Source of the DNA: Bacillota bacterium
GTDB taxonomy: Bacteria; Bacillota; Clostridia; Clostridiales; Clostridiaceae
NCBI GenBank assembly: GCA_032907345.1
Contig: JAJBWD010000222.1
Coordinates: forward strand, 1,550-65,549
Reading direction: 5' to 3'
Length of the DNA stretch: 64,000 nt
How positions within the stretch are numbered: the stretch's first letter is position 1; every line of letters starts with the position of its first letter. Both the position numbers and the translations under genes were made by a program. Of the stretch, positions 262 to 53,362 are shown in pieces. Below the pieces are notes generated by a model. That model saw only the letters and a program-made list of their open reading frames with translations. It ran no database searches and was not told the DNA's origin.

Positions 262-1374
262 TTAATCTCCTTTATACGGTATTCTTTTTACTATTTTTAC
301 TACCTTATTCTTTTTTTTATTACGACAGTCTTTACATATAGAATAAAAACCATCTTTACTGGAGGTATTTTTAGAATAAAAAATATTATGTGCTAGTTTA
401 ATCTATCCGCATTTAGAGCAACGTTTCCATTCACCTTTTTCTTTATTAGTATAGTACCATAAAAGATAATTTTTCGTAGCGGTTTCCGCAATCATTTTAG
501 GAATCTTATTCCGCCAAAGAGAAGATATATACTATATAGAATAGTGAACATTATGTTCTTGCTACAAAAGAGATTGAATCTAAAGATTAGTTTTTCCATC
601 TATTTTATAAATCAAAAGACTATAATAAAGAGGAAAGTCTTTTTCAAAGGTCTAATCCACTATTTTATCTAATGCTTCCATAAGAAAATAACCATCTGTA
701 TAAAATTTACCATAACAACTTTCTTTTAATCGAGAATAATTACACAAAAGAGCAGAAACATGTTTAGGGTTCATAAATGATATTAAACTCTTATCTTCTA
801 TTTCTCCATTTTTCATTGTTATATTATCATCAAAATTTAAAGAATAAAAATTTTTAATACCATTTAAACAATTTATAGGCTGTTTGTATGAGTTTTTTAA
901 AACATATTGATCTTGACGTAATTGAATAACTTGTTGTTTTAATATAAAACGATTTTTCCCTTTAGCCTTTTTCTCGCGGGCTTCGGTTTCCGCTATAGCC
1001 TACTGTAACTGTTTAAGACCAGGAATAGTTTCAATATCTTCTGCCGTAATAGATATTTTAGGTGTAAAAATAATATTTTTATCATCCGTTATTAAATTAT
1101 ATATTCCATCTTCACCGTTCTAAAATTTACTCACTAACCCCTAAAAAGATTTTTCTCTTTTGTTTACCGTAATCATTCTATTACTTGTATTTATTAATTT
1201 ATCTTTTTTCTCTTGTTTTGTCATAGCAAATATAATATAATCAGCCATTACTTCTAAATATTTTTTTGTTATTTTTTCAGGAGGTAGAGAATCTATTATT
1301 TGTTGGACTAAGGCAGTTCGTGCCTATGGAGACTAAATAGTATAATCTAACTTTAAATTTTTTGAATCTTCCAT
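262..1374 (-). CDS. hypothetical protein (370 aa) with C-terminal CxxC...CxxC Zn-ribbon; TAG-recoded
   Basis: RBS AAGGAG + ATG 1372-1374, TAA 262-264, length divisible by 3. 10 in-frame TAG; no long ORF in the standard code. Confidence 0.6.
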
Positions 1375-1527
1375 TTATAAGATTCTCCTTTCTTGACCTT
1401 ATATTTTTAGTATACCAAAAATTTTTGTACAAATCAAAGTAGCTTAAATAGCAAATTGACTTGTTTTTTTGAAATTTTTTTGATATAATATTTTTAGAAA
1501 ATGAAAGACAAGAGAAAGGAAGAAAAA

Positions 1528-2313: not shown

Positions 2314-2363
2314 ACTAAAACGTATCATGATGAACTTTAGGAATCTACGGAGTGTTTGATGTG

Positions 2364-2621
2364 ATGTTAAAAATAGAAGATTTTAGTGAATTTGGAGTTA
2401 GAGAAATTCTTCTTTCTTTTGAGCAATTTACAAGAGAAGGAAAAGATATGGAAATTAATTTGAATTTCTGTGCGGAACCCGCCCGTGATAATGCATGGTA
2501 TCAAATTAATATCGGTGAATGTTTTGAAGATGAATATAAAAATTTAGAGGAGCACCGCTTTAATAGTTTAAAAAAGGCTATTAAATGGTGGAATAAATAT
2601 TTTGAGGAAAATGAAAAATGA
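2364..2621 (+). CDS. hypothetical protein (85 aa)
   Basis: ORF track 2352..2621; first ATG at 2364. Confidence 0.5.
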   Translation: MLKIEDFSEFGVREILLSFEQFTREGKDMEINLNFCAEPARDNAWYQINIGECFEDEYKNLEEHRFNSLKKAIKWWNKYFEENEK

Positions 2622-23954: not shown

Positions 23955-24071
23955 TTAATCTAAATTAAAAAAATGCTTTTCCTTCTCATCCTTCTTATAA
24001 AAATAATAACCCACACCATATAAAACCAGCGTAAACCCAATTATAATTCCAATACTTATTATCTTAATCAT
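23955..24071 (-). CDS. tiny membrane protein (38 aa)
   Basis: MIKIISIGIIIGFTLVLYGVGYYFYKK...; overlaps the upstream stop. Confidence 0.3.
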   Translation of the reverse strand: MIKIISIGIIIGFTLVLYGVGYYFYKKDEKEKHFFNLD

Positions 24072-24147
24072 TTTTCTTAATCCAACCAAAATAAATAATA
24101 AAAATTCCTATCCATACTAATCCACTAATTCTAATCCATTCTGTCAT
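24064..24147 (-). CDS. tiny membrane protein (27 aa)
   Basis: TAATGA overlap. MTEWIRISGLVWIGIFIIYFGWIKKND. Confidence 0.3.
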   Translation of the reverse strand: MTEWIRISGLVWIGIFIIYFGWIKKND

Positions 24148-24857
24148 TAAAACGCTCCTTCAATTCTATCCACCTGAGTCCCTTTTATCACCTTACAACC
24201 AATCTTCTCTTGTAACTCTCTCAAAAATGTATAAAATCCAACACCTTTCATATTTGTCATTTCCGTCAAAACATCCCAAGCTTCTTCCTTACTAATCTCT
24301 CCTGCCTAAACCATTCCTTGTACTAAAATCTGCTTCTCAGTAGCATCTCCAAAATACTTCTTAATCAACTTCTGTTTAATCTCTTCCTCTTCAAAAGTTA
24401 ACTGTCTTAAATCTCCATCTTCTGTTTCTTTACACCATAAATATCTACATTTACCCAATATTCCACCTTTCTAATCAAAAGGTCTACCATACAATGCATC
24501 TCTACTCTTCAATGTATAATTATACACAGTACTCTCCGCAATAGCTAAAGCATATTTACCATTTTCAATAATTTTCTAACTTACTCTTTTACATGTATCC
24601 AACCCACTATCATCCCACACTTCATCAACTTGACTTTGAATCTTTCTAAAATTCTAACTCCCCTGTTTATAATAAACAGGCTAATAAATACGAATTATCT
24701 TAATCTTCTTTTGTTTATTACCAACTTCCTCAAAATCAGCAAAAGCCTTCAACTCCTACAACTTCTTCTATTTATTTTTACTAAAAGAACTTGGAGCAAT
24801 ACCAAACCACTCCGCCAACTCTTTATTAGTATAAACCTTTAATTCTAACTATTTCAC
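24147..24857 (-). CDS. HTH-containing protein (236 aa), TAG-recoded
   Basis: RBS AAAGGAG-N9-GTG 24855-57; TAA 24147-49; 8 in-frame TAG. N-terminus ...YTNKELAEWFGIAPSSFSKNK. Confidence 0.55.
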
Positions 24858-25238
24858 TATACAAAACTCCTTTCATTAATAGTTATTCTAATATAATATA
24901 AAAACTAAAATAACCAAATGAAAAAAGTTTGCCCAAACTTTTTTCATTACTTCATTCATGAAACTTTTGCCTTTTTTTTCACTGGGGAGTATATATTAGC
25001 GGTGAAAAAATTGAAAAAAGTTACATAAAGTAAATTACATATAGCACCAAAATTTTAACACAATTTTTTAACAATCAAACAAAAATGCTATCCGAAAATT
25101 CACATACTAATATTATAGAAAGCGAATTTTGGGATAGCATTTTTACATCAATCAAACAAATTTCATGACCAAAAAATGCAAAAAGGTTCCCCCATGCGGG
25201 ATCCGCACCTTAATCAGGAAATACTCTACCCCCTATTT

Positions 25239-25601
25239 TCAGAGAATCTAATCCAATTTAACCTACCCCCCATAAAAACCTTCATAAATCTATCCTCTTT
25301 TATATCTATAACCTCTTTCAAAAGTAAAATCCTAAGTAACAACAGTAGGCTAAATTACATAATTAAAAATATCTGAATCTCTTATTCCCGGTTCCAAATA
25401 AGCTACATGCATCTTATGACCCCGGGAATTATCTGATGCGGGAATACCCCTAATATAATTACCATTCTTCATCATTATCCTAGGCGGCTATATCTTAGAT
25501 CTAATAACCCTATAAACCGCATCATAATTAATCTTACTTAAAAAATCTACAAACCATTTTTCACACCACTATCTACTTTTAAACCAAACTCCAACAATCA
25601 T
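25239..25601 (-). CDS. hypothetical protein (120 aa), TAG-recoded
   Basis: RBS AAAGGAGG + ATG 25599-601; TGA 25239-41; 7 in-frame TAG. Confidence 0.5.
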
Positions 25602-25731
25602 GCGGCGGCCCCTCCTTTTCCAGATTAACTCTACTCCTCATCATCCTCTTCATCTGCTTCCCGCTCTTCATTCTTTTCTCTTGTTCTTTCATATTCCAAC
25701 ATTGTATTTAATATTGCACCAAAAGGCATTA

Positions 25732-26202
25732 TCATATAGGCCTCCTATTTATCTCCGCACCTCGCGCAGGTATCTTAAAAACTTCAACAGGCTTCCCTTT
25801 CTCAAGAGCATACTTATAAGTATAATAGGTCCCCCCATTTTTAACACCATCCCACACAACTAACAACACATCACAATCATCAACAATGCGGCGGTCCCTG
25901 GTTAAATACACACCGGAACTATATTCATTCTGTTCAAACCTAGTGACTTCCGCATTTGTTAAGACATAATCTTCTAAATTACTAAACTTGCGCGGAAAAG
26001 GATAATAACATCTTACACCTACCCCCTTATTTAAGGCAGTAACTGCGGCAATCTGGTCAACACCTCGCGCCATTCCGCTTATTAAACTGACTTTTTCTCC
26101 TCTTGCTTTATATTCTTCTAACTTTTCAGCTATCCATTTTTCTACTACAAACCAATTAGTTCCTAATCTTTCTGGTCTATGTCCTGTGATTCCTACTAAC
26201 AC
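25732..26202 (-). CDS. SLOG-fold protein (YpsA/DUF1273/DUF2493-like)
   Basis: LVGITGHRPERL... and SGMARGVDQIAA... with DVLLVVWDG..NGGT. Confidence 0.6.
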   Translation of the reverse strand: MLVGITGHRPERLGTNWFVVEKWIAEKLEEYKARGEKVSLISGMARGVDQIAAVTALNKGVGVRCYYPFPRKFSNLEDYVLTNAEVTRFEQNEYSSGVYLTRDRRIVDDCDVLLVVWDGVKNGGTYYTYKYALEKGKPVEVFKIPARGAEINRRPI

Positions 26203-37985: not shown

Positions 37986-38448
37986 CTACATAAATAGCAA
38001 TGGTGACTTGATTTAATAGTGCGCATAAAAATCAAGAGAGTCCACCAAATCACGGCGGTCGGGAGAGTGAGACCATAGTGAACTACCTAGAGTGACAGGA
38101 GTCATGACCTGTGGAATTCAGGCTATAGTGAGAAAGGGAGCCTAAAAAATGGACTAAGCTATTTAATGTTTACTCTCGAAGAGAAACAGCAGACTCGCGT
38201 CCCTGTCACGGACGAGATAGTGGGGGCAGCACCCATCGGGAGTGTTAGGAAGTAGATTTACCTTCCGCCAATTGTAAATCTAAGCTGTTGATAAATAGCC
38301 GCTTTACTTTTTTGGGGTGTTACAGGAAAAAGTCCTTGTAGGTGCAGGTTCAACCTATCTCACAATTTTCGGGAGTAAAACGAAAAGAGGGAACGTGGTT
38401 TTCCCGTGTCTGGATGGCAAAAGCATTGGCAAAGCAAATCACTTATAT

Positions 38449-38480
38449 GGGGGGCTGGTGGAATTGGTAGACACCCTAAT
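38449..38480 (+). pseudogene. 5' half of a split type-II (Leu-like) tRNA
   Basis: GGGGGGC-TG-GTG-GAATTGGTAGA-CAC-C-CTAAT, then AT-rich insert. Complements the 3' half at 39112-39153. Confidence 0.4.
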
Positions 38481-38565
38481 TATATGGACAAGAGTGTTAA
38501 ATATTAAAAATATTTTTTTTAAAAATAGTGTAAGAAAAAATATTTTTAGAAAGGACATTTTTAAT

Positions 38566-39027
38566 ATGAGAAGAACAGACATTTTAGAAAGAAAAGAAGA
38601 TATATTAAAATGGATTGATTTACATCAATCTAAAGCCTATATGTGTAAGCAACTTCATTGTAAACCTGACACTTTAAATAGTTATTTGTAGAAAATGGGA
38701 ATTTCTTATACTGGAAATAAGGGAGGAAAAGGTATAAAAAATAGTCCTACTTATAAAACAGCTTAGGAATATATTAAACAAGATTATGTTAAATCTCATG
38801 TTTTAAAACAAAAACTAATTAGAGATGGTATAAAATCAAATAAATGTGAAATTTGTGGAATTTCTATTTGGCAAGGTGTGTAGTTACCTTTAGAACTTCA
38901 TCACAAAGATGGAAATCATTTTAATAATAATTTTGATAATTTACAGATTTTATGTCCAAATTGTCATTCTATACAATAGGGAAATTCTGGAGCAAATATA
39001 GGAAAATATACAAAAATAGCCGAGTGA
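38566..39027 (+). CDS. HNH homing-type endonuclease (153 aa), TAG-recoded
   Basis: CEICG...LELHHKDGNHFNNNFDNLQILCPNCH. 4 in-frame TAG, 3 of them upstream of the HNH core. The TGA 39025-27 overlaps the next tRNA. Confidence 0.75.
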
Positions 39028-39341: not shown

Positions 39342-39415
39342 GGCTCCTTCTTCTAAAAGGACAGGATATGACCCTTTCAAGGTCAAGATGGCGGGTTCAA
39401 TTCCCCCAGGGGCTA
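39342..39415 (+). tRNA. tRNA-Glu (UUC)
   Basis: Acceptor GGCTCCT/AGGGGCT (2 G-U pairs); anticodon arm TGACC-CTTTCAA-GGTCA; T arm GCGGG-TTCAATT-CCCCC (1 mismatch). Confidence 0.65.
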
Positions 39416-39551: not shown

Positions 39552-39869
39552 TTTACTGAAAGTATTAATATAACCTTAGGCAATGATATTAATATAAGTA
39601 AGTTGACTGTTTGTCTGTCGGAAAGGGTGTTTTAGTAAAGAGTAAAAACATCAGCAAGGCTCCTAAAGCTAACCTGAACGGAAAATGGTAAGCGGTGTGG
39701 TAAAACCTTATAGACCAATACGGTAGATGCATATGCCGTATTTGATTTTTAAAAAATTTTTTGTTATAATATTTTTAGAAAGTGAAAGGCAGGAACAGCA
39801 AATTATAAACTTTCTTAACAAATCTTCCAAATTTGTAACCAGAATAAGTTAAACTGTCTTGATTAATAT

Positions 39870-40229: not shown

Positions 40230-40870
40230 TTGAATTATCAACAAAAGAACATTGACAATTGAATAATTTAGTTATATTTATGAAGCAACTCAGTGATAAA
40301 CGTCAATTCCATGACGCTGAGGTATTGGCTTTACGAATAACCAGAATAAGGAAGGATACTTTCTTAGGAGAAAAGATTTTATGCGGCAACGTATAAAACG
40401 CCAGGTCTAAAGAAATGGTTTAGTCAATAGCACTGGGGTAATCGCTCTTAAAGACACTGTTCCAATCGGCTCCATAATATAGGGTTCTTTAACGAGAGCA
40501 CTAATCCAAGTTAGGTGAAGCGTGGAAAACTTTGCAAACCTTGGAATTTCCATAAGGGGTTAATGCACTTGAAGCGGCGGAAGCCGTGTATAAGATTGGG
40601 TCAAGGTACGAGTAGGCTAAATGTGCGTAGACAAAAAGTTTGGATAACTTCTTATACAGGTTATAAAATTTTGCTGAAAGGTAGCTGAAAGTTAGAGGTA
40701 TACAAAATCCTCTACAAGATTTGTCTGTCTTGAACAGATGGGGCATATAGCGGTGAGGTCGCTCCTAATCGCTCAGGTATGTCTCCTTGGTGGTCGAATA
40801 TAAGAGAAGGTTATTACCAGCAACCCGAAGGGGTGTTATTCATAGATATAATTAAGTTATTCAATTGTTG
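40230..40870 (+). ncRNA. ~600-nt ORF-free region bracketed by a 27-nt inverted repeat; candidate large structured RNA
   Basis: CAATTGAATAATTTAGTTATATTTATG (about 40255) pairs with CATAGATATAATTAAGTTATTCAATTG (about 40842). There is no ORF in either code. It lies inside the tRNA array. Confidence 0.4.
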
Positions 40871-40937
40871 ACAAAATAAAAAATTTTTAGTATAATATAT
40901 TTATAGAATTAAGAAACAAGAGTAAAAAGGAGTAAAT

Positions 40938-41930: not shown

Positions 41931-42073
41931 ATAGAAAGACATATACAGCAACTTCTTACTTTTGTAAGTTTACAGGTTCGAATCCTGTCACAAGCATTGT
42001 CGCTTATGTAGTCAAATGGTTAAGACAACTGTCTCGTAAACAGTCATTATTTACAAATTATATGTCTTGTTAT
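41931..42073 (+). ncRNA. circularly permuted tRNA-like RNA (T arm, closed acceptor hairpin, D arm, anticodon-like arm CGU) clamped by a 10-bp terminal stem
   Basis: AAGACATATA (41936-45) pairs with TATATGTCTT (42059-68). Inside are ACAGG-TTCGAAT-CCTGT, CACAAGC-ATTGTC-GCTTATG, TA, GTC-AAATGGTTAA-GAC, A and ACTGT-CTCGTAA-ACAGT. Confidence 0.55.
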
Positions 42074-43679: not shown

Positions 43680-43689
43680 TTAATATAAA

Positions 43690-43806
43690 GATGCGGTGGC
43701 GGAATATGTAGACGCTTAGGAGTAAGGGCAGTGAAAACGAAAAGGCAAACGGGTGTGAGTAACGATTGCTTCTGTCCATGTAAGGTGTAAATCCTTACCC
43801 GCATCT
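43690..43806 (+). ncRNA. 117-nt tRNA-like RNA: acceptor + Leu-like D arm, tetraloop hairpin CTTA-GGAG-TAAG, long inserted helix, atypical T arm
   Basis: Acceptor GATGCGG/CCGCATC; D arm GCGG-AATATGTAGA-CGC; helix GGGCAG...CTGTCC; T arm GTAAGG-TGTAAAT-CCTTAC. Confidence 0.4.
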
Positions 43807-43815
43807 AAAAATTTT

Positions 43816-43844
43816 TTGATTTTTTAAAAAAATTATTATATAAT
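43816..43844 (+). promoter_or_regulatory. promoter of the transcription unit that starts with the CUA tRNA
   Basis: TTGATT 43816-21, 17-bp spacer, TATAAT 43839-44. A leader with the AAGACAGA/TCTGTCTT clamp spans 43866-43940. Confidence 0.6.
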
Positions 43845-43942
43845 ATATTTATAAGATGAAAGAAAGACAGAAACAGCAATTTATTTTAATTTTTGTATTA
43901 GACTGTTAATCTAATTTAAGCAATTTTTAATCTGTCTTGGTA

Positions 43943-44016
43943 TGGCTCGGTGGTCAAACGGTTTAAGACGCTGGTCTCTAAAACCAGAAATCGGAGTTCG
44001 ATTCTCCGGCGGGCTA
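43943..44016 (+). tRNA. suppressor tRNA, anticodon CUA (reads UAG); Gln-like
   Basis: Perfect anticodon arm CTGGT-CTCTAAA-ACCAG. D arm GTC-AAACGGTTTAA-GAC nearly matches tRNA-Gln(UUG) at 46045. T arm CGGAG-TTCGATT-CTCCG. Acceptor TGGCTCG/CGGGCTA (U1-A72). Confidence 0.8.
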
Positions 44017-44025
44017 TCCCAATTT

Positions 44026-44113
44026 GCGGATGTGGCAGAGAGGTTTAATGCGGTACCCTGCTAAGGTATTGATCCTACATTAGGGTCCGGTGGTTCGAAT
44101 CCACTCATCCGCG
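44026..44113 (+). tRNA. tRNA-Ser (GCU), type II
   Basis: Acceptor GCGGATG/CATCCGC; anticodon arm GTACC-CTGCTAA-GGTAT; T arm GGTGG-TTCGAAT-CCACT. Confidence 0.8.
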
Positions 44114-46044: not shown

Positions 46045-46116
46045 AGGGCCGTAGTCAAACGGTAAGACACAGGATTTTGATTCCTGCATTTGTGGGTTCG
46101 AACCCCGCCGGCCCTG
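46045..46116 (+). tRNA. tRNA-Gln (UUG)
   Basis: Acceptor AGGGCCG/CGGCCCT; D arm GTC-AAACGGTAA-GAC; anticodon arm CAGGA-TTTTGAT-TCCTG; T arm GTGGG-TTCGAAC-CCCGC. Confidence 0.85.
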
Positions 46117-46125
46117 CTAAAAAAT

Positions 46126-46209
46126 GTCAGTATAGCTTAATTGGTAAAGCGGCTCCCCCCAAGGAGTGTAAGGCCTAAGACGATATAGGTTCGAACCCTA
46201 TTGCTGGCT
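46126..46209 (+). ncRNA. 84-nt type-II-like tRNA with irregular anticodon arm (G-CTCC/CCCCAA/GGAG-T, 6-nt loop)
   Basis: Acceptor GTCAGTA/TGCTGGC; D arm GCTT-AATTGGTAA-AGC; 17-nt variable region; T arm ATAGG-TTCGAAC-CCTAT. Confidence 0.4.
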
Positions 46210-46328: not shown

Positions 46329-46465
46329 TTTAATACAAAAGTTAATTAATGTATTGTATTAACATTTATCAAAAAAGTTGTCCAGGGATAGTATTCATTA
46401 GTGTGATACGTCGGGTTGGGGCGGAGTAGCTAACCGTGAACAGACAAAAAATATGATAAATGTTC

Positions 46466-46537
46466 GCGCTGTGGTGTATTATGGTAACATACCTCCTTGC
46501 ATACGGGGGAGCTTTACGTTCGATTCGTAACGGCGCA
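46466..46537 (+). tRNA. tRNA-like with apparent 8-nt anticodon loop UUGCAUAC (CAU/GCA?)
   Basis: Acceptor GCGCTGT/ACGGCGC; stem CCTCC/GGGGG around TTGCATAC; T arm (T)TACG-TTCGATT-CGTA(A). Confidence 0.45.
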
Positions 46538-46542
46538 ATTAT

Positions 46543-46805: not shown

Positions 46806-47576
46806 ATGAGAGACCCAAGGTATGCATTAACTGAACATTTTCAAAAAATTATTATAGATTATCCTAATTATAGATTTTTAGGAATTTTTCTTTACGGTTC
46901 TCAAAATTATGGTCTTGCAACAGAAGATTCTGATGTTGACAGTATTGCTATTGTTATTCCAACAATAGAAGATATTATCCTCAGAAAACCTATTTGTAAA
47001 GAAATTATTTTTGAAAACGGTGAACATTGTAATATAAAAGATATTCGAGAAGTTGTTAAAGAATGGAAGAAACAAAGTCTTCAGGCTCTTGAAATTCTTT
47101 TTACAGATTATTTTATAATTAGACCCAAATATGTTTCTTATTGGAATAACTTTCTTAATATTAGAAATGATATTGCTCATTATGATGTAAAAAGAACTTT
47201 TAAGTCTATTTCAGGACAAGCGAAACAAACTTATCTTCGAAATCCTTCAGATAGAAAACAAATCGCCAATACTTATAGACTATATTATTTTTTAAGGTCT
47301 TATTTGATGGGTTGTTCTTATAAAACTTGTCTTACATCAAATAGTATTGCAACATTAGGAGTTAAGACAGGAGAAATTCCTCTTAATGATTCTCTTAATA
47401 AAGATATTGCAGATATTGTTTTTAATCGTTTTCCAAAACTTGAAGATACATCTTGGAAAGTTAGAAATGTTCCTGAAATAGGACAAAAGATAGATGAATA
47501 TCTTGTAAAATTAATTAAAGGAGTAGAATATGAAGAGGATGTCAAAACTATTCTTGATAAAATGGAAAATATTTAA
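46806..47576 (+). CDS. Pol-beta-superfamily nucleotidyltransferase, RlaP/'Nuc-transf'-like
   Basis: IFLYGSQNYGLATEDSDVDSIAIV (GS-x10-D.D motif); 256 aa. Confidence 0.65.
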   Translation: MRDPRYALTEHFQKIIIDYPNYRFLGIFLYGSQNYGLATEDSDVDSIAIVIPTIEDIILRKPICKEIIFENGEHCNIKDIREVVKEWKKQSLQALEILFTDYFIIRPKYVSYWNNFLNIRNDIAHYDVKRTFKSISGQAKQTYLRNPSDRKQIANTYRLYYFLRSYLMGCSYKTCLTSNSIATLGVKTGEIPLNDSLNKDIADIVFNRFPKLEDTSWKVRNVPEIGQKIDEYLVKLIKGVEYEEDVKTILDKMENI

Positions 47577-47614: not shown

Positions 47615-47860
47615 ATGAAAGATTTAGATAAAGAATTAGAAAAAGCAACAACTCTTATTGAAAAAACAAAAATTCTTAGAGAATATACTAATTGTTCCAT
47701 ATCTGACGCTGTAAGTGCAATGAAATATAAAAATACTCATTCTAAATGCACAGCATGTGGTTATTTAAGAGCAATTATTGGGGATACAAGTCAATTTTCT
47801 AATAAACAATTTTATAAACGAGTTGAAAAATTTTCAGACTTAGATAATGATATACTTTGA
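47615..47860 (+). CDS. small protein with EF-Ts-N/UBA-like motif; paralog of 19235..19438
   Basis: ILREYTNCSISDAVSAMKY. Shares the C-terminus FYKRVEKFSDLDNDIL with the paralog. Confidence 0.5.
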   Translation: MKDLDKELEKATTLIEKTKILREYTNCSISDAVSAMKYKNTHSKCTACGYLRAIIGDTSQFSNKQFYKRVEKFSDLDNDIL

Positions 47861-47885
47861 CAAAAGTAAAGGAGATAAAAGGATT

Positions 47886-49394
47886 ATGAATACATTTATG
47901 AATCAGCTTTCAAACGATTTTAATTACAAGAGAACAGAGAATGGAGCACTCGCTCACCGTACTACTAACTCAGCGGTTTATGATATGTTTGCTATGGGCG
48001 CTGCATATCGTTCACGTTCAGATGAAGATTGTATTCTTCTTTTCAAAAACGCCTTCGAAGAGGACTCAGTTCTTGCGCTGAAGTGTCTATTCTATATTCG
48101 TGACTGCCGCGGCGGTCAGGGTGAACGTAGATTCTTCCGTACATGCTTCCGCTGGTTGGCAGAGAACAAGCCTGTGCGCGCCCGTAATTTGATTGAGTAT
48201 CTTCCTGAGTATGGTAGATATGATGACCTGTTTGAACTTTTCGGCACTCCTGTTGAAAAGAATGTAATGGCTCTTATTGAAAAGCAGCTTCGTGAGGATA
48301 TGGCGTGCGAGAAGAATGGTATTAGCCTTATCGCTAAGTGGCTTCCTTCAGAAAATGCTTCAAATGCAGATACGATTGCAAGAGCAAGAAAGATTAGACG
48401 TTCACTTGGAATCACCTCCAGACAGTATCGTCAGATGCTTTCAAAACTAAGAGCTAAGATTAATGTTCTTGAAAGACTGATGTCCGCCAATAGATGGGAC
48501 AAGATTGAGTTTGATAAGATTCCTTCTCGCGCAGGTATTATTTATCGTAATGCTTTTGCAAGACGTGATATTATCGCTAAGAAGTATGAGTCTTTTGCAA
48601 AGGATAAGAATACAAAGGTTAATGCTTCTGTACTTTATCCTTACGAAGTAGTAGCTAAGGCTGTTAAGACTTCAGGATGGTCTTACCGTTTTGATACTCT
48701 TAGTGAAACTGAGCGTGCTATGATTAATAAGTATTGGGATAATCTTCCTGATTATCTTAATGGTAAGGATTGTAGCATGATGTGTGTTGTAGATACTTCT
48801 GGTTCTATGACTGGTGTTGGTGCGGCAGCACCTATTAATGTAGCAATTAGTCTAGGTCTGTATTGTGCAGAACGTATTGGTGGACCTTTTAAGAATCACT
48901 ATATCAGTTTTGCTTCACAGCCTCAGCTAATTAAGACCGTAGGAATTGATTTTGTAGATAAGGCTCGCCGTATCTATCAGACAAATCTTTGCGATAATAC
49001 TAATTTGGAAGCTGTTTTTGATTTACTTCTAAAGACAGCAACCAAGAAGGGTGTTAAGCAGGACGATATTCCTAAGACCATTGTAGTTATTTCTGATATG
49101 GAAATTGACAGTGGTACTGGTGGATGGTATCGAGAAAGTAGATGGACAAAGCATTCTGCTTCTACAGAGGTGGAGAAGATTCGTCAAAAGTGGGCAGCAT
49201 ATGGACTTCAGCTTCCTAAGTTAATCTATTGGAATGTAGATGCCCGCCAGAATACAATCTTGGATGCAGGCCCTAATATATCCTTTGTAAGCGGTATGTC
49301 CCCTACTATTTTCAAGCAGGTTCTTACTGGTAAGACTGGTTATGATTTGATGCTTGAAGCTATTAATAGTGAAAGATATGCCGTAATCAGATAA
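47886..49394 (+). CDS. DUF2828-family protein with C-terminal vWA domain (possible TROVE/Ro60-like RNA-binding protein)
   Basis: RBS AAAGGAG + ATG 47886. RTENGALAHRTT..VYDMF...LFYIRDCRGGQGER. MIDAS motif VVDTSGSMTG and ...VVISDME. Confidence 0.6.
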   Translation: MNTFMNQLSNDFNYKRTENGALAHRTTNSAVYDMFAMGAAYRSRSDEDCILLFKNAFEEDSVLALKCLFYIRDCRGGQGERRFFRTCFRWLAENKPVRARNLIEYLPEYGRYDDLFELFGTPVEKNVMALIEKQLREDMACEKNGISLIAKWLPSENASNADTIARARKIRRSLGITSRQYRQMLSKLRAKINVLERLMSANRWDKIEFDKIPSRAGIIYRNAFARRDIIAKKYESFAKDKNTKVNASVLYPYEVVAKAVKTSGWSYRFDTLSETERAMINKYWDNLPDYLNGKDCSMMCVVDTSGSMTGVGAAAPINVAISLGLYCAERIGGPFKNHYISFASQPQLIKTVGIDFVDKARRIYQTNLCDNTNLEAVFDLLLKTATKKGVKQDDIPKTIVVISDMEIDSGTGGWYRESRWTKHSASTEVEKIRQKWAAYGLQLPKLIYWNVDARQNTILDAGPNISFVSGMSPTIFKQVLTGKTGYDLMLEAINSERYAVIR

Positions 49395-49589: not shown

Positions 49590-49904
49590 TTAAATATTTC
49601 CTAATTTATTAAAAATCTTATTTGTTATATAAATAATTTCATCTCCATATGTGGAAATTAAATCAGCTATTAATTCCTATTGCTCAAGAGAAAGATTAAC
49701 ATTATAAGAAAACATTGCGGCATGTGTTATTTCGTGGCATAATACCTTCCGTAATAAATCTCCTTGTAATGTTTCATTTATATAAATTGTTCGAGTAAGA
49801 TTGTCACACGCTCCTATTGAAAATTCTCCATTTAACCTTTGCAATAAAGGAAAGTTAGGAGCAACAAAAGAGAGTTTCCAATAAACATTGTTAATTAAAA
49901 ACAT
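49590..49904 (-). CDS. small HExxH metallopeptidase-like protein (104 aa), TAG at 49677-79
   Basis: VLCHEITHAAMF. The frame continues 28 codons past the TAG to TAA 49590-92. Confidence 0.55.
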
Positions 49905-49906
49905 AA

Positions 49907-50473
49907 TTAATTAATTTTATTTGCTAATGTAGTCATTTTTTGACGTAATGTAGTTCTCTCTTCTGGCGACGCATCTTTAATCATTTCAGTAATATCTGAA
50001 GAAAGTTCTTGAAGGTATGCTTCTAATTCGTGAAGTTGAGAACTTGTATCTTTATGTTTCTCTTTGCCTTCCATATACATCCTTCTTCTCATTGGAGATC
50101 TTCCCTAACGGGGATCCCTCATCATTTCTGTATAATAAGAGGTAGTTCCGCCATTAGAGCTAGAATTACCTCCCATATTACCACCATTTCCGCCAGAATA
50201 ATACATATATCCGTTATTACGTTCTATATTTCTATACTCTGGATACATTGGAGTGGTGTAATAATTAATATTATTAACAGAAGTTTTTTCTTTTTCTTCT
50301 GCTTTTTCCATTGAATCAGTAATAGTACAATAGTATATCGCTTCAGACAAGTCTTTTATCATATCAACAGCTTCACCAAGTTCATGGGCATCCGCCTTTG
50401 ATATATCACCAAGTTGGCTCTGTACACAACTCATTAACTGGTCTTTCATCATTTTTAATGCTTCAGTTCCCAT
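49907..50473 (-). CDS. hypothetical protein with G/N-rich segment, TAG at 50105-07
   Basis: RBS AAGGAGG + ATG 50471-73. Track ORFs 50105..50518 and 49907..50092 are in one frame across the TAG. Confidence 0.55.
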
Positions 50474-50483
50474 TTTTCCCTCC

Positions 50484-50939
50484 TTATGCTGTTCTTGTAA
50501 TCTATATTGAGGCTCCACGTCTTACTTGAATAGAAGGCGTTGGAGTAGTAGCAGGATCATCTTCAGTTCCATCTGCATATGTACCTGATACAGTTACGCA
50601 ACATCCACAAGGAACTGTAACTGAAGCTTCAGTAGCAATATGCCAATATTCTCCTACTGCGGCAGGAGTAACAATTGCTACGCTTTCTGGAATTATAACT
50701 CCATTAAGAGTAATTCCAAGCGCAATAGGAGTAACTGCACCCCCAGTAGGAATTTGGATATTCCCCTGAATTAAAACATTATATCTTGCAAAACGATTAG
50801 GAGTATTACCATTTAAGTTAAGAACCCCAGGAACAAGAGGAACAACATTCCCTTTGTTACAAGGAATAGAAACACTATTAAATGGAATTGTTCCATTTAA
50901 TGCGACTACATTGTCTGTAGTTGTTACATAACTAGCCAT
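50484..50939 (-). CDS. hypothetical beta-rich structural protein, TAG at 50502-04
   Basis: RBS AAGGAGG + ATG 50937-39. TAA lies 5 codons after the TAG. Confidence 0.55.
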
Positions 50940-50953
50940 GAGCAACCTCCTTA

Positions 50954-51718
50954 TTAATTATAAAAACCGTTGCCGCCACATCCGTTCCAGTTTCCGCAAT
51001 TACATCCATTAGGATTTGCAACCACATAAGCAGGAATCGGTGTAGGATTTAAAGCTTGACGTAATGTAGCTGTTTGGGCTGCATTATCTGCAAGAATTTG
51101 TCCAGTTTGAGCATTCTGAGAAGCTGCTAAATTAGCAAGATAACCTTGCATTTGAAGCTGTTGGTTTTGAGCCTTAAGGGCTTCAATCTATTGCTGACAA
51201 AGTTTATCAAGAATGGCCTGTGTATTTGCTGTATTTGATGCTATTACATCTCGTAAAGCGTCTGTAACTGCTGAGCGGTCTGCACATGCTTCTGTAGCTA
51301 CAGTATACTTCAAATCAGCTAATCCCGCTCTATTTTCACAACAACAATTTTGTTGATTCATTGCTATTGTATTTAATTGAGTAGATAGATTTGCTTGATT
51401 GTTGTTTAATGTTTGTAGGATATTCGCTTGTGAGTTACAACGAGAAACTTCTGCATTTGAAAAGCCAGTATTTATTGCGGTAGTCACACCGTTTAAGCTA
51501 TTCATAAGGGCGCTCTGGTCAAATCCGCGTTGAACATCAGCTATAATAGCAGGTTGTCCATTTCCGCCGAAACCGTTATTATTCCAACCGCCCGCAAGCA
51601 TTAAAATAAATAAAAAGAAAATCCAGGCTCCATCACCATTAAATCCAAAACCATTATTATTGCCTGTTGCTGCTGCAATATCAGATAAGGAATATCCATT
51701 AGTATTATTATTAAACAT
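50954..51718 (-). CDS. N/G/Q-rich membrane-anchored protein, TAG at 51188-90
   Basis: Track ORFs 51188..51718 and 50954..51151 join in frame: ...KLCQQ[TAG]IEALKAQNQQLQMQGY... Confidence 0.6.
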
Positions 51719-51730
51719 TTGTATCTCCCA

Positions 51731-51961
51731 TTATTGATTTAAATAATTTTTAAATTTTGCAAATTCTGTATCAAAATCCAAACCTCTTTGTTGCGCTAAA
51801 TTTCGAGCAATCATCTCTAAAGCAGATGTATTTCCATTTTGCGCTAGATTCATTGCATTCTCAAGAATAGGATTATTTTGTCCTAAAATATTCATCATAA
51901 GTTGTTGAGGATTTTGACCGTTTTTTATCATATTTATTAATTGAATCGGATTTACATTCAT
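51731..51961 (-). CDS. hypothetical protein (76 aa)
   Basis: ORF track. Confidence 0.55.
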   Translation of the reverse strand: MNVNPIQLINMIKNGQNPQQLMMNILGQNNPILENAMNLAQNGNTSALEMIARNLAQQRGLDFDTEFAKFKNYLNQ

Positions 51962-51966
51962 AATAA

Positions 51967-52467
51967 TTATACCCTCTTAACTATAAAATTACTATTACTG
52001 CTTTGTCCAGTATTTTTATTATTCTATACGGATTCAGTCTAAGTTTTTTGCGTTATTGTTTGAGACTGAATTGCCGCCATTAAATTTTGTATAACATTAT
52101 TAAATTCATCTTTTGTAACATATTCAGAAGAATTATAAGGATTTTCATCAGCAGTTAAAGCATAGGTTTTAAAAGTTGCTGTTCCATCATAATTTATTTG
52201 TTTAGTATAAATTTTCTAATTTCCAACATCAATAAAAACCCATAAAGAGCCATCTAAATCTATTTGTGCGGCTCTTGCCTATTCTTTTGATGCAACTGGT
52301 CTACATTTTAAAAATTGATTTGAATAATTTTGATTATTTGCGTTTACAGTTACATTATTTCTCCCTAAATAATTATCATAGGGAGTATTCATTATTAAAT
52401 TGTTAGTATAAGGATATTGAACTGGTATCATGCCACCATTCATTCCTTGCTGATTAAAATTGGCCAT
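51967..52467 (-). CDS. hypothetical protein (166 aa), 4 in-frame TAG
   Basis: Extends track ORF 52279..52467 by 104 codons to TAA 51967-69. Confidence 0.55.
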
Positions 52468-52607
52468 TTTAATTTTTCTCCTTTTATCTCTAAAAATGTA
52501 TACATTTTGTTGGAGAGAAGTTTTATTCTTCTCCCCAACTATATATAATTTTTAAATTTAATAAGTTTTTAAAATTTGTCCATTAAAGTAAAAATTTTTA
52601 TTTAATT

Positions 52608-52877
52608 TTATTCACCTTCAACTGGCTCTTCTTCTGGTTCAACCTGCGGAATTGCATGTACGTATCTTTGATTCATAATCGGCACACCTTCAGATGTAAA
52701 CATAATCGCCGCATGTACAGGCAATTCACTAATAGCTGCCGCAGATAAAACTTCATAAAATTTGCTCTCTGCTTTAAGTCTTGCTTTTGTAGGATCTTCG
52801 TCCCATACTACGTGCTTAATATCACCATAAGACCCGTCTACATATTTTTGTAGTTCAATAACGTAATATTGAGTCAT
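52608..52877 (-). CDS. hypothetical protein (89 aa)
   Basis: ORF track. Confidence 0.6.
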   Translation of the reverse strand: MTQYYVIELQKYVDGSYGDIKHVVWDEDPTKARLKAESKFYEVLSAAAISELPVHAAIMFTSEGVPIMNQRYVHAIPQVEPEEEPVEGE

Positions 52878-52929
52878 AATTGTTTCCTCCTTTTTTCAGC
52901 CGTCACAGCTTATATGTCAGCCTTCAACT

Positions 52930-53235
52930 TCATTTAAGACCCCCTTTAATGTGAAGATTTTCTACTTCTTTCATAATTTTGGTTCCAGAGCCATTACCTC
53001 CGAGCTTTACATAAGGTTTGTACAATTCACATAAAGTGTCGTATTCGTCCTGAGTAATCCAGCCGCGTTCTATATACTGCATTCCAAAGAACACGATTTC
53101 GATGTGACAGATACCCATCAGAATCTCTTTTTCGGCGGTATGACGGTCGAACCGAGAACTCAGAAATGCCCATAAACCAGAGGACGCCAGAACTGATGTA
53201 AATATAGTTAGTATTATTTGTGACCAGAATTCCAT
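52930..53235 (-). CDS. membrane protein (101 aa), possible holin-like
   Basis: N-terminal TM MEFWSQIILTIFTSVLASSGLWAFL. Confidence 0.45.
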   Translation of the reverse strand: MEFWSQIILTIFTSVLASSGLWAFLSSRFDRHTAEKEILMGICHIEIVFFGMQYIERGWITQDEYDTLCELYKPYVKLGGNGSGTKIMKEVENLHIKGGLK

Positions 53236-53348
53236 TTATTTAATTCCTTTCTATTATATGGTGCTAATATATGTCCTGTTTGAGTTACTGTATCTTCTGT
53301 TAAATCCATTTGCGTAATTCCATTTAATATTATTTTACTTATTGCCAT
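53214..53348 (-). CDS. orphan 44-aa copy of the tail-fibre N-terminal anchor motif
   Basis: MAISKIILNGITQMDLTEDTVTQTG... resembles the N-termini of 53363.., 54874.., 56711.. and 58186.. Confidence 0.35.
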   Translation of the reverse strand: MAISKIILNGITQMDLTEDTVTQTGHILAPYNRKELNKWNSGHK

Positions 53349-53362
53349 ATATAATCACCTTC

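What the first reader, a model, noticed from the sequence alone, without database searches (positions are those of the whole stretch)
43816..44016. Amber-suppressor tRNA(CUA) of apparent Gln ancestry at the head of its own promoter unit
The RNA at 43943-44016 folds as a cloverleaf with a perfect anticodon arm CTGGT-CUCUAAA-ACCAG, giving anticodon CUA. Its D arm (GTC-AAACGGTTTAA-GAC) is almost identical to that of tRNA-Gln(UUG) at 46045 (GTC-AAACGGTAA-GAC). It can form a U1-A72 first pair, a weak first pair like the A1-U72 of tRNA-Gln(UUG) and U1-A72 of the Gln-like tRNA at 36053. It is the first tRNA after promoter TTGATT-17-TATAAT (43816-44) and a clamped leader (AAGACAGA...TCTGTCTT, 43866-43940). 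Its timing could therefore be set transcriptionally. The acceptor/T junction is irregular: either a G7-G66 mismatch or a 6-bp T stem.
Basis: partly seen in the sequence, partly recalled or inferred. Interest (0 to 1): 0.7.

Follow-up and report, generated by a model that had tools for sequence, protein, structure and literature searches.

The report
Phage amber suppressor tRNA reading UAG as glutamate
A phage of gut or rumen Gram-positive bacteria carries a real tRNA that reads the stop codon UAG, but both the tRNA body and the proteins it helps to make indicate glutamate, not the glutamine assumed for all such phages so far.

Summary
Positions 43944-44016 (+) are a real tRNA with anticodon CUA (ARAGORN; Rfam 53.4 bits). 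It is conserved in eight related phage contigs, with compensatory T-stem changes. The window is a phage with more than 32 tRNA genes. TAG is a sense codon in at least 17 of its genes, including a sigma factor with 10 TAGs and two lysis enzymes with 7 and 8.

The "Gln ancestry" reading does not hold. The D arm is the hallmark of Bacillota tRNA-Glu: all 113 bacterial tRNAs carrying that motif are tRNA-Glu. Isotype models with the anticodon masked rank Glu first, and Gln is not in the top six. G1·U72, A73 and a 4-nt variable loop match Clostridia tRNA-Glu(CUC), which is one anticodon base away.

Independently, 25 TAG columns in three protein families favour Glu (log-likelihood E -35.9, Q -85.7). 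Among close relatives TAG exchanges mainly with GAA/GAG. The "Q" seen in database homologs is TAG translated under code 15.

Best explanation: a tRNA-Glu(CUA), probably charged by host GluRS, that makes UAG mean Glu.

The promoter and leader are conserved but not suppressor-specific. I found no report of phage TAG→Glu in the literature searched. It needs proteomic confirmation.

The parts
43816..43844 (+). Sigma-70-like promoter TTGATT-17-TATAAT
   Evidence: Consensus scan, 10 of 12 positions. The block 43813-43862 is identical in 6 of 7 relatives whose DNA upstream of the -35 is unrelated. The same promoter sequence recurs at 39742-39770 ahead of tRNA-Met. Activity was not tested.
43864..43938 (+). 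Conserved 75-nt leader. It has an 8-bp clamp (AAGACAGA 43864-71 with TCTGTCTT 43931-38) and a central 6-bp hairpin (43897-43915) whose loop is CUNNNAA. The shape is tRNA-like but it is not called as a tRNA.
   Evidence: Present in 7 of 7 relatives. The hairpin keeps pairing through an A-to-G change (G·U), and the loop triplet varies GUU/UGU/UUU. The fold is a cloverleaf-like shape but not significant (z = -0.97). A homologous leader lies at about 39786-39866 ahead of tRNA-Met, with its clamp kept through a G·U pair. Function unknown.
43944..44016 (+). Amber-suppressor tRNA, anticodon CUA at 43978-43980, with the body of Bacillota tRNA-Glu(CUC). Features: G1·U72, A73, G7·G66 mismatch, 4-nt variable loop.
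   Evidence: ARAGORN. Rfam 53.4 bits. Two compensatory T-stem pairs and a U·G to C-G change among relatives. Cloverleaf 98.9% paired on the joint alignment with tRNA-Glu(CUC). Glu isotype by D-arm motif and HMMs.
44026..44113 (+). tRNA-Ser(GCU), the constant downstream partner of the suppressor in the same unit
   Evidence: ARAGORN and Rfam. It follows the suppressor after 6-9 nt in all relatives that extend that far.
262..1374 (-). Phage sigma-factor gene with 10 in-frame TAG codons
   Evidence: The phrog_5767 'sigma factor' match (E = 5e-46) covers residues 27-354 and spans the TAGs. TAG columns in 106 representatives at 30-52% identity are E 38%, Q 11%. Column log-likelihood E -12.9, Q -24.2.
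29689..30510 (+). GH114 glycoside hydrolase (lysis module) with 7 in-frame TAG codons
   Evidence: The Pfam PF03537 match spans all the TAGs. In 90 homologs below 66% identity the TAG columns are E 66%, Q 2%, and the first column is E in 89 of 89.
30523..32271 (+). Lysin with two CW_7 repeats and a metallo-beta-lactamase domain; 8 in-frame TAG codons
   Evidence: Pfam CW_7 and Lactamase_B on either side of TAGs. The TAG-column profile (E .21-.24, D .13-.15, Q at most .09) matches the profile of true Glu columns, not of Gln columns.
49590..58156 (-). Block of structural and accessory genes on the - strand, each with 1-4 in-frame TAGs. It includes 50954-51718 (phrog_16490), 51967-52467, and the tail-fibre-like genes 54874-56115, 56130-56714 and 56711-58156.
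   Evidence: phrog_16490 spans its TAG. Codon-level exchanges TAG↔GAA/GAG with relatives, including a TAG at the Glu of the HExxH motif of 49590-49904 in L017. Two TAGs align with Gln in a paralog.
59442..63977 (-). Large tail protein whose 1435-aa reading frame ends in TAG at 59693-59691 and continues in frame for 82 more codons
   Evidence: ORF analysis. Similar to tail proteins of Bacillus, Staphylococcus and Mammaliicoccus phages. Whether this TAG is read through was not tested.
24147..24857 (-). Gene of unknown function with 8 in-frame TAG codons
   Evidence: ORF analysis. No PHROG family matched.
38317..39027 (+). HNH endonuclease gene inserted in the tRNA array, with 4 in-frame TAG codons
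   Evidence: Pfam HNH, weak. Absent from the close relative L012. Its four TAGs align with AAA (Lys) in L067, which is the exception to the Glu pattern.

Best explanation
The gene at 43944-44016 encodes an amber-suppressor tRNA that descends from a Clostridia/Bacillota-type tRNA-Glu(CUC). The anticodon changed from CUC to CUA by a C36-to-A change, and C38 also became A.

Proposed mechanism:
1. The tRNA is transcribed together with tRNA-Ser(GCU) from a conserved host-type (sigma-70-like) promoter, through a conserved structured leader.
2. It is processed to a tRNA that starts at G43944.
3. It is most likely charged with glutamate by the host glutamyl-tRNA synthetase, because it keeps the D-arm, variable-loop and acceptor features of tRNA-Glu.
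4. It then competes with release factor 1 and inserts Glu at UAG.

This lets the phage translate its TAG-containing genes: a sigma factor (10 TAGs), the lysis enzymes (7 and 8 TAGs), tail-fibre genes and others. In this phage lineage UAG therefore means Glu, not stop and not Gln.

Shown here: the tRNA, its conservation, its Glu-type body, TAG used as a sense codon, and the Glu-like residue profile at TAG positions.

Inferred, not shown: charging by GluRS, no conversion to Gln by the GatCAB amidotransferase (the tRNA lacks U1-A72), promoter activity, and any timing role.
For: The tRNA is real:
- ARAGORN and Rfam both call it.
- The same tRNA occurs in 8 related contigs. The T stem changes from CGGAG/CUCCG to UUGAG/CUCAA (two compensatory pairs) and one acceptor pair changes from U·G to C-G.

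The body is Glu-type:
- The motif GGTCAANCGGTT(N)AAGAC, scanned across GTDB genomes, lies only in tRNA-Glu: 88 UUC, 24 CUC, 1 ambiguous.
- The nearest cellular tRNAs are tRNA-Glu(CUC) of Lachnospiraceae and other Clostridia, at 55 of 73 bases.
- The 3' part alone (positions 26-73) is still closest to Glu(CUC).
- Isotype HMMs with the anticodon masked give Glu 29 bits in two independent training sets. Gln is not in the top six, and the controls are classified correctly.
- G1·U72 occurs in 12 of 24 tRNA-Glu(CUC), A73 in 18 of 24, and a 4-nt variable loop in 112 of 112. The suppressor shares all three.
- The joint cloverleaf is 98.9% paired.

TAG is a sense codon:
- Pfam and PHROG matches span in-frame TAGs in the GH114 gene, the sigma factor and the phrog_16490 gene.

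TAG means Glu:
- GH114 far homologs: E 66%, Q 2% at TAG columns. True Gln columns give Q 43%, E 4%.
- Combined over 25 columns: log-likelihood E -35.9, D -75.3, K -76.7, Q -85.7. E is the commonest residue in 16 of 25 columns and Q in 1.
- Codon level, alignments at 70% identity or more: TAG↔Glu codons in 21 of 39 cases, K 5, Q 3. Log-likelihood E -92, K -141, Q -164.
- A relative has TAG at the Glu of an HExxH motif.
- The 'Q' in database homologs is TAG translated with code 15, checked on the DNA of two contigs.
Against: - No biochemical or proteomic data. The amino acid is inferred only from alignments.
- Two TAGs in tail-fibre paralogs align with genuine Gln codons.
- The four TAGs of the HNH gene align with Lys codons in their closest homolog.
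- In more distant relatives (45-70% identity) E and Q are not separable: log-likelihood -255 against -256.
- From established knowledge of E. coli: C36 is a GluRS identity element, and CUA-anticodon tRNAs are prone to charging by GlnRS through U35. In a host with GlnRS some Gln insertion is therefore plausible.
- The G7·G66 mismatch is not a tRNA-Glu feature.
- The bacterial Glu training set was selected by the D-arm motif, so that comparison is partly circular. The phage-locus set was not selected that way, and there the margin over the next isotype is small: Glu 29.2 against Cys 24.5.
- The host, and whether it has a GlnRS, are unknown.
Confidence: 0.8

Rival explanations
1. It is an ordinary code-15 suppressor. 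The tRNA(CUA) is Gln-like, or is at least charged with Gln, either by a host GlnRS through U35 or through GluRS followed by GatCAB amidation. TAG then means Gln, as in crAss-like and Lak phages.
For: - TAG→Gln is the only TAG reassignment reported for phages (Borges et al.; Peters et al.).
- The D arm is nearly identical to that of the window's tRNA-Gln(UUG).
- One register allows U1-A72.
- Two TAGs align with Gln in paralogs.
- Gene callers already translate the homologs with Q.
Against: - Isotype models do not place Gln in the top six, and the D arm is the tRNA-Glu hallmark.
- TAG columns are E-rich and Q-poor even though database artefacts inflate Q: log-likelihood gap of about 50 over 25 columns and about 72 at the codon level.
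- Some of these positions are invariant acidic residues: E in 89 of 89 GH114 homologs, and the Glu of an HExxH motif.
Confidence: 0.1
2. Decoding is ambiguous. The tRNA is charged partly with Glu and partly with Gln (or Lys), so UAG gives a mixture. The phage tolerates this because TAG is placed at E/Q/K-tolerant sites.
For: - Minority alignments of TAG with Q and K.
- From established knowledge: engineered tRNA-Glu amber suppressors in E. coli are mischarged with Gln.
- E and Q are indistinguishable in the 45-70% identity band.
Against: TAG also sits at invariant Glu positions, where a mixture would be costly. The minority Q and K alignments are no more frequent than at true Glu codons: query-E columns show Q 6-23% and K 10-15%.
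Confidence: 0.07
3. The tRNA is an inactive relic. In-frame TAGs are read through by a host suppressor or by another factor, or the TAG-containing genes are pseudogenes.
For: - The MFE fold of the sequence alone is not a cloverleaf.
- There is a G7·G66 mismatch.
- No CCA is encoded in the window copy.
Against: - Strong covariance-model score.
- Compensatory changes and conservation across contigs that are only 78-93% identical elsewhere.
- The TAG-containing genes keep full-length domain matches and conserved TAG positions.
Confidence: 0.03

Closest known systems
Phage stop-codon recoding with suppressor tRNA(CUA), 'genetic code 15' (crAss-like, Lak, Garnet and other clades; Borges et al. 2021/22; Peters et al. 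2022; phAss-1 group, Babkin et al. 2023)
   Same: - A phage-encoded CUA tRNA inside a tRNA array.
- TAG is absent from many early-type genes and concentrated in lysis, structural and regulatory genes.
- The host presumably uses the standard code.
- No dedicated synthetase was found.
   Different: - Those systems are inferred to read TAG as Gln, and in two crAss-like phages this was shown by proteomics. Borges et al. state that only TAG→Q and TGA→W were seen.
- Here the tRNA body is Glu-type and TAG positions behave as Glu.
- No theta ribozyme can follow the tRNA, because tRNA-Ser starts 9 nt after it. Kienbeck et al. report such a ribozyme for 85% of the suppressor tRNAs in their phage set.
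Bacillota/Clostridia tRNA-Glu(CUC)
   Same: - D arm GGUCAAxCGGUU(U)AAGAC.
- U8 and G9.
- 4-nt variable loop.
- T loop UUCGAUU.
- G1·U72 and A73.
- Anticodon loop CUCU..A.
- Gapless alignment except for one extra U in the D loop.
   Different: - Anticodon CUA instead of CUC.
- A38 instead of C38.
- G7·G66 instead of a paired 7-66.
- All stems carry different, though paired, sequences.
Peritrich ciliate nuclear code (NCBI table 30: UAA and UAG = Glu), cited from my own knowledge
   Same: UAG is decoded as glutamate by a tRNA derived from tRNA-Glu.
   Different: That is a eukaryotic nuclear code that affects UAA as well and applies genome-wide. Here a virus imposes the meaning on a host with the standard code, for UAG only, and in a subset of genes.
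Engineered E. coli tRNA-Glu amber suppressors (Kleina and Normanly, 1990), cited from my own knowledge
   Same: A tRNA-Glu body carrying a CUA anticodon.
   Different: Those suppressors are inefficient and partly mischarged with Gln in E. coli. This one is a natural, conserved tRNA, and its genome-wide TAG usage is consistent with Glu.
tRNA-Pyl (the label ARAGORN gives)
   Same: The CUA anticodon only.
   Different: This tRNA has G18-G19, a T-loop UUCGAUU, a 5-bp anticodon stem, a normal D loop and a 4-nt variable loop. None of the tRNA-Pyl peculiarities are present.

Membership tests
tRNA (Rfam RF00005) | Cloverleaf with conserved U8, A14, G18-G19, T-loop UUCRANY and a 7-nt anticodon loop with U33 | tested here: met
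   53.4 bits against a gathering score of 29, full model 1-71. ARAGORN also calls it. 98.9% of cells are paired on the joint alignment.
tRNA (Rfam RF00005) | Stems maintained by compensatory change in homologs | tested here: met
   Two double changes in the T stem and one U·G to C-G change in the acceptor stem among 8 phage copies. On the alignment with tRNA-Glu(CUC), 15 of 20 pairs show changes on both sides.
Amber suppressor tRNA | Anticodon CUA at positions 34-36 of a standard 7-nt loop | tested here: met
   Loop C-U-CUA-A-A at 43976-43982. ARAGORN and Rfam agree on the register.
Amber suppressor tRNA | Suppression of UAG in vivo | not testable with these tools
   Indirect evidence only: at least 17 genes need TAG read-through, and domain matches span the TAGs.
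tRNA-Gln-type suppressor (code 15) | The body is classified as the Gln isotype | tested here: not met
   Gln is not among the six best isotype HMMs. The window's tRNA-Gln(UUG) control scores 43 bits on the Gln model.
tRNA-Gln-type suppressor (code 15) | A weak U1-A72 (or A1-U72) first pair, and G73 in the E. coli GlnRS identity set | tested here: inconclusive
   U43943-A44016 can pair, which is the ARAGORN register. Homology with tRNA-Glu, and a CCA placed after A44016 in L017 and L088, favour G1·U72 with A73. The mature ends are unknown.
tRNA-Gln-type suppressor (code 15) | In-frame TAG aligns with Gln in homologs | tested here: not met
   Q is the commonest residue in 1 of 25 TAG columns and E in 16 of 25. 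Log-likelihood Q -85.7 against E -35.9.
tRNA-Glu (Bacillota type) | D arm G10-U11-C12-A13 / A22-G23-A24-C25 with loop AAxCGGUU(U)A | tested here: met
   The motif occurs only in tRNA-Glu among the bacterial tRNAs recovered, 113 of 113.
tRNA-Glu (Bacillota type) | 4-nt variable loop (no residue 47), A73 discriminator, G1 paired with C72 or U72 | tested here: met
   The suppressor has variable loop AAAU, A73 and G1·U72. The bacterial set has a 4-nt loop in 112 of 112, and among the CUC isoacceptors G·U in 12 of 24 and A73 in 18 of 24.
tRNA-Glu (Bacillota type) | Anticodon YUC | tested here: not met
   The anticodon is CUA. This single-base difference from CUC is what makes it a suppressor.
tRNA-Glu (Bacillota type) | Aminoacylated with Glu by GluRS and not amidated by GatCAB | not testable with these tools
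   Inferred from the retained body features and the Glu-like TAG columns.
tRNA-Pyl | 6-bp anticodon stem, 3-nt variable loop, small D loop without G18-G19, one base between acceptor and D stems | tested here: not met
   5-bp anticodon stem, 4-nt variable loop, G18-G19 present, two bases (U8, G9) between the acceptor and D stems.
Phage stop-codon recoding system | In-frame reassigned stop codons in otherwise intact genes, concentrated in late, lysis and structural genes | tested here: met
   Lysis genes carry 7 and 8 TAGs, the sigma factor 10, and structural genes 1-4. Most small + strand genes at 2-24 kb carry none.
Phage stop-codon recoding system | Accessory factors such as RF2 or a dedicated aaRS (present in some members only) | tested here: inconclusive
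   None were found among the roughly 45 ORFs scanned. The window is only part of a genome of about 135-145 kb.

The most novel reading that the evidence does not exclude
A lineage of about 135-145 kb phages of rumen or gut Clostridia uses a genetic code in which UAG = Glu. The code is installed by a tRNA-Glu(CUC)-derived suppressor.

The proposed route is as follows. The host's GluRS tolerates the change at position 36; non-discriminating GluRS enzymes already accept C or G there. The Glu-type acceptor end and D loop then keep the tRNA away from the GatCAB amidotransferase.

This would be a second, independent solution to phage TAG recoding. It would not be in the NCBI code tables for prokaryotes or viruses. 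Current pipelines would mistranslate it systematically as Gln under code 15.
Probability: 0.7. Interest if true: 0.85.

Novelty: new variant of a known kind. Interest (0 to 1): 0.78.

Why it matters
- **A broader rule.** Phage stop-codon recoding is treated as TAG→Gln or TGA→Trp only. The usual rationale is that GlnRS and TrpRS are unusually easy to hijack. A Glu-type amber suppressor would show that a third synthetase can be co-opted and that TAG recoding has arisen by more than one route.
- **Annotation errors.** Gene callers that switch to code 15 write Q at these codons. I verified this on the DNA of two related contigs. For this clade that puts the wrong residue at conserved acidic positions, some of them probably catalytic. 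The error then feeds into annotation, structure prediction and metaproteomic searches.
- **A synthetic-biology part.** A natural amber suppressor that carries Glu has been hard to engineer, so this one could be useful.
- **A testable gate.** The heavy TAG load of the phage sigma factor suggests that late transcription depends on the suppressor.

Tried and rejected
- **Single-sequence folding.** The MFE fold of the tRNA is not a cloverleaf and is not significant. It says nothing for or against a tRNA.
- **Other stop-codon reassignments.** Reading TGA or TAA as sense does not restore known genes any better than reading TAG as sense.
- **Ancestry from the window's own tRNAs.** The best in-window neighbour is Trp(CCA) at 54 of 67 bases, with Gln second. 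This pointed towards a Trp origin. Comparison with bacterial tRNAs replaced it with Glu.
- **Close annotated relatives.** The INPHARED phage collection gave only tRNA-level hits.
- **Exact-protein look-up.** The neighbouring ORF is not on record.
- **Solved GH114 structures.** They align too weakly to say which residues the TAG positions correspond to.
- **Control on other loci.** Applying the codon-exchange method to loci carrying other suppressor types was spoiled by ORFs running through conserved tRNA genes. I do not use it. The working control is the contrast between true Gln columns and true Glu columns in the same alignments.
- **More sensitive tRNA search.** ARAGORN with introns allowed and a lowered threshold found no further tRNA in the leader or the upstream structured element.
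- **tRNA-Pyl.** Rejected on structure.
- **Theta ribozyme after the tRNA.** Rejected because tRNA-Ser starts 9 nt downstream and Rfam found nothing there.
Full report
**1. What is at the coordinates**

ARAGORN finds 32 tRNA genes in the window. Thirty of them form one + strand array at 35.8-46.8 kb. One, at 43943-44019, has anticodon CTA. Rfam's tRNA model matches 43944-44016 over its full length at 53.4 bits (gathering score 29). The only non-standard pair it marks is 7-66, G·G.

The anticodon arm, the D arm, the TTGATT-17-TATAAT motif at 43816-44 and the clamp AAGACAGA/TCTGTCTT are all present.

ARAGORN's label 'tRNA-Pyl' only names the anticodon. The molecule has G18-G19, a UUCGAUU T loop, a 5-bp anticodon stem and a 4-nt variable loop, so it is not a tRNA-Pyl.

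**2. Context: a phage that uses TAG as a sense codon**

The window has 34.5% G+C. Its contents identify it as a phage of a Gram-positive host:
- tail proteins related to those of Bacillus, Staphylococcus and Mammaliicoccus phages;
- a lysis module with CW_7 repeats;
- a phage sigma factor;
- a ROOL RNA inside the tRNA array.

Read with the standard code, several genes are broken by TAG. Read through TAG, they become full-length proteins, and the family matches span the TAGs:
- Pfam GH114 across 7 TAGs;
- PHROG 'sigma factor' across most of its 10 TAGs;
- phrog_16490 across its single TAG.

In a rough gene set, at least 17 credible genes carry in-frame TAG. Most small + strand genes at 2-24 kb carry none.

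**3. The tRNA is conserved and under structural constraint**

The same tRNA occurs in three IMG/VR contigs and five metagenome contigs. Elsewhere these contigs are 78-93% identical to the window.

The variants differ in three ways:
- two compensatory T-stem pairs, CGGAG/CUCCG to UUGAG/CUCAA;
- a U·G to C-G change in the acceptor stem;
- one change in the D loop.

The G·G at 7-66 is kept in all of them.

**4. Ancestry and identity of the tRNA: Glu, not Gln**

Within the window the closest tRNA overall is Trp(CCA). tRNA-Gln(UUG) resembles the suppressor only in the D arm.

I scanned one genome per GTDB species for the D-arm motif GGTCAANCGGTT(N)AAGAC. Every tRNA that contains the motif is a tRNA-Glu: 88 UUC, 24 CUC and 1 ambiguous.

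The best cellular neighbours are tRNA-Glu(CUC) of Lachnospiraceae and other Clostridia, at 55 of 73 bases. They align with the suppressor without gaps apart from one extra U in the D loop.

That bacterial set was chosen by the D arm, so I repeated the comparison in two ways that do not rest on the D arm:
- Using only positions 26-73, tRNA-Glu(CUC) is still the best isotype.
- I built isotype HMMs, with anticodons masked, from the tRNAs of the phage loci, which were not chosen by that motif. There Glu scores 29.2 bits, Cys 24.5 and Trp 17.1, and Gln is not in the top six. The window's tRNA-Gln and tRNA-Glu controls are classified correctly. The margin over Cys is small.

Feature by feature, the suppressor shares three traits with Bacillota tRNA-Glu:
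- the 4-nt variable loop, present in 112 of 112;
- A73, present in 18 of 24 tRNA-Glu(CUC);
- G1·U72, present in 12 of 24 of the CUC isoacceptors but only 2 of 87 of the UUC isoacceptors.

The canonical cloverleaf fits the joint alignment with 98.9% of cells paired. Its only unpaired cells in the suppressors are their own G7·G66.

This also settles the acceptor register as far as sequence can. In L017 and L088 a CCA follows A44016 directly.

CUC to CUA is a single base change.

**5. What TAG encodes: four independent counts point to Glu**

(a) GH114 gene, 7 TAGs. In 90 homologs below 66% identity the TAG columns are E 66%, K 11%, D 7%, Q 2%. The first column is E in 89 of 89. In the same alignment, true Gln columns of the query give Q 43%, E 4%, and true Glu columns give E 83%.

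The closer homologs show 'Q' at these columns. On the DNA of two such contigs those Qs are TAG codons that the database translated with code 15. The artefact can only inflate Q.

(b) Lysin, 8 TAGs. The TAG profile is E .21-.24, D .13-.15, Q at most .09. This is the profile of true Glu columns, not of true Gln columns.

(c) Sigma factor, 10 TAGs. Against 106 cluster representatives at 30-52% identity the TAG columns are E 38%, Q 11%, K 10%. Column log-likelihood is E -12.9, Q -24.2.

Combining (a) to (c) gives 25 columns. Log-likelihood is E -35.9, D -75.3, K -76.7, Q -85.7. E is the commonest residue in 16 columns and Q in 1.

(d) Codon-level comparison of window genes with related loci. In alignments at 70% identity or more, TAG exchanges with GAA/GAG in 21 of 39 cases, with Lys codons in 5 and with Gln codons in 3. 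I built an empirical substitution model from the same alignments. It gives E -92, K -141, Q -164.

The individual cases lie in well-aligned real genes, for example YRLSKL[TAG]DWPHEY against YRLSKLEDWPHEW. One relative has TAG at the Glu of the HExxH motif of a small putative metallopeptidase.

Exceptions:
- Two TAGs in tail-fibre paralogs align with genuine Gln codons.
- The four TAGs of the mobile HNH gene align with AAA in its closest homolog.
- At 45-70% identity E and Q cannot be separated. Some of those relatives carry other, Gln- or Trp-like, CUA tRNAs.

**6. How it most likely works**

Shown:
- a conserved CUA tRNA with a tRNA-Glu(CUC) body;
- TAG used as a sense codon;
- a Glu-like residue profile at TAG positions.

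Inferred, from established knowledge of GluRS and GatCAB recognition:
- GluRS recognition rests largely on the 'augmented D helix', the missing residue 47, and U35 and A37. All of these are retained.
- The altered position 36 is the one that non-discriminating GluRS enzymes already read loosely, since they accept C36 in tRNA-Glu and G36 in tRNA-Gln. This would explain why a Bacillota host could charge a CUA variant.
- GatCAB requires U1-A72 and a tRNA-Gln-type D loop. The suppressor has G1·U72 and a Glu-type, even enlarged, D loop, so the Glu should stay Glu.

No aaRS or release-factor gene was found among the ORFs I scanned. The window is only part of the genome.

**7. Promoter and leader**

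The block from TTGATT to the start of the leader is identical in 6 of 7 relatives, although the DNA upstream of the -35 is unrelated in several of them. The leader is conserved in all 7. This supports a functional cassette.

The cassette is not specific to the suppressor:
- tRNA-Ser(GCU) always follows in the same unit.
- A homologous promoter-plus-leader cassette precedes tRNA-Met at 39870.
- About a dozen comparable + strand sites occur across the array, in a region where such motifs are only slightly above chance.

Both leaders have a 7-8 bp clamp and a central 6-bp hairpin with a CUNNNAA loop. This gives them a tRNA-like outline without D or T arms. What they do is unknown.

A more specific timing idea comes from codon usage. 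The sigma-factor gene has the highest TAG density in the window, 10 in 370 codons. Its synthesis, and hence any late transcription it directs, should depend on the suppressor. This is inference only.

**8. Comparison with what is known, and novelty**

Suppressor-tRNA-based TAG recoding in phages is well described, but always as TAG→Gln:
- Borges et al. write that only TAG→Q and TGA→W were observed.
- Peters et al. validated Gln in two crAss-like phages.
- Babkin et al. infer Gln for a 136-kb phage group.
- Kienbeck et al. predict Gln, Trp, Ile and Tyr isotypes for suppressor tRNAs, and no Glu.

Seven full-text searches found no report of TAG→Glu in a phage or a prokaryote. The library does not hold everything, so I treat novelty as probable rather than certain.

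The nearest precedent for the meaning itself is the peritrich ciliate code, which I cite from my own knowledge.

I file the finding as a new variant of a known kind.

**9. Verdict**

| Claim | My estimate |
|---|---|
| The amber-suppressor tRNA is real | about 0.95 |
| It is Glu-derived and TAG = Glu in this lineage | about 0.8 |
| It is charged by host GluRS and escapes GatCAB | plausible but untested |

The Gln interpretation is not supported. The 'own promoter unit' idea is only partly supported.

Noticed in passing
window 40265-40855 (+): A full-length ROOL RNA (RF03087, 280 bits, model positions 1-574 of 574) is embedded in the tRNA array. A perfect TTGACA-17-TATAAT lies just downstream at 40868-40896.
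   Followed up: partly
window 43864-43938 and about 39786-39866 (+): Two homologous 75-80 nt leaders lie between a shared promoter and the first tRNA of a unit (the suppressor and tRNA-Met). Each has a 7-8 bp terminal clamp and a central 6-bp hairpin with a CUNNNAA loop. The outline is tRNA-like without D or T arms. The loop triplet differs among relatives (GUU, UGU, UUU). A weaker third copy of the 5' motif is at 41936.
   Followed up: partly
window 43689-43808 (+): A structured element lies just upstream of the promoter (MFE -36.3 kcal/mol, z = -2.85, no shuffle as stable). It has an 8-bp closing stem, a type-II-tRNA-like 5' part (GCGGTGGCGGAATATGTAGACGC) and a T-arm-like hairpin with loop UGUAAAU. 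It is conserved with a G·U change in L021 and L089. Neither ARAGORN nor Rfam calls it a tRNA. It may be a decayed or interrupted tRNA.
   Followed up: partly
window 38317-39027 (+): An HNH endonuclease gene is inserted in the tRNA array and is absent from the close relative L012. All four of its in-frame TAGs align with AAA (Lys) in the nearest homolog (L067, 72% identity), unlike the Glu pattern elsewhere. Unexplained. It may have been acquired from a phage with a different TAG meaning, or it may be chance.
   Followed up: no
window 36053-36124, 46464-46539, 46126-46209 (+): Three tRNAs have non-standard anticodon loops by ARAGORN: 'tctg' and 'gcat' (8-nt loops, possible four-base anticodons) and 'cc'. 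All three pass the Rfam tRNA threshold. Rfam also calls two tRNAs that ARAGORN misses, at 39342-39415 and 42002-42066.
   Followed up: no
window 47847-49394 (+) and loci L018-L081: A 515-aa DUF2828/DUF7788/vWA protein (PHROG 850, 'RNA-binding protein') sits at the end of the tRNA array, next to a nucleotidyltransferase-like gene at 46806-47576. Relatives of it mark 65 viral contigs, many with tRNA arrays. Across all the viral loci fetched, ARAGORN found 30 CUA tRNAs, with quite different bodies (Gln-, Trp- and Ser-like, some with long variable arms).
   Followed up: partly
loci L082 10001-10756 and L083 3001-3759; proteins P0001-P0030: Public protein collections translate the in-frame TAGs of this phage clade as Q (code 15). 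On the DNA these Qs are TAG codons. For this clade that is probably the wrong residue, including at invariant acidic positions.
   Followed up: yes
window 2000-27000; 24000-26000: ORF density is low under every stop-codon scheme across 2-27 kb, with many short + strand ORFs. There is a sharp GC-skew excursion of -0.52 at 24-26 kb. Two TAG-rich - strand ORFs lie there: 24147-24857 with 8 TAGs and 25239-25601 with 7.
   Followed up: no
window 34248-35045, 33554-34270, 1498-2364 (+), 50502-50957 (-): Some genes end in TAG with a TAA or TGA stop 0-16 codons later, for example TAG-TAA at 35040-35045. This is as if TAG serves as the stop before the suppressor accumulates, with a backup stop afterwards.
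   Followed up: partly
locus L007 6903-6975; locus L006 149-240: Other CUA tRNAs were picked up by the anticodon-arm search. One begins GUCCUAUUCGUCUAG, which from my own knowledge resembles Gram-negative tRNA-Glu. One is a type-II tRNA with a long variable arm that scores best as Ser. Both hint that non-Gln amber suppressors may be more widespread in phages.
   Followed up: no
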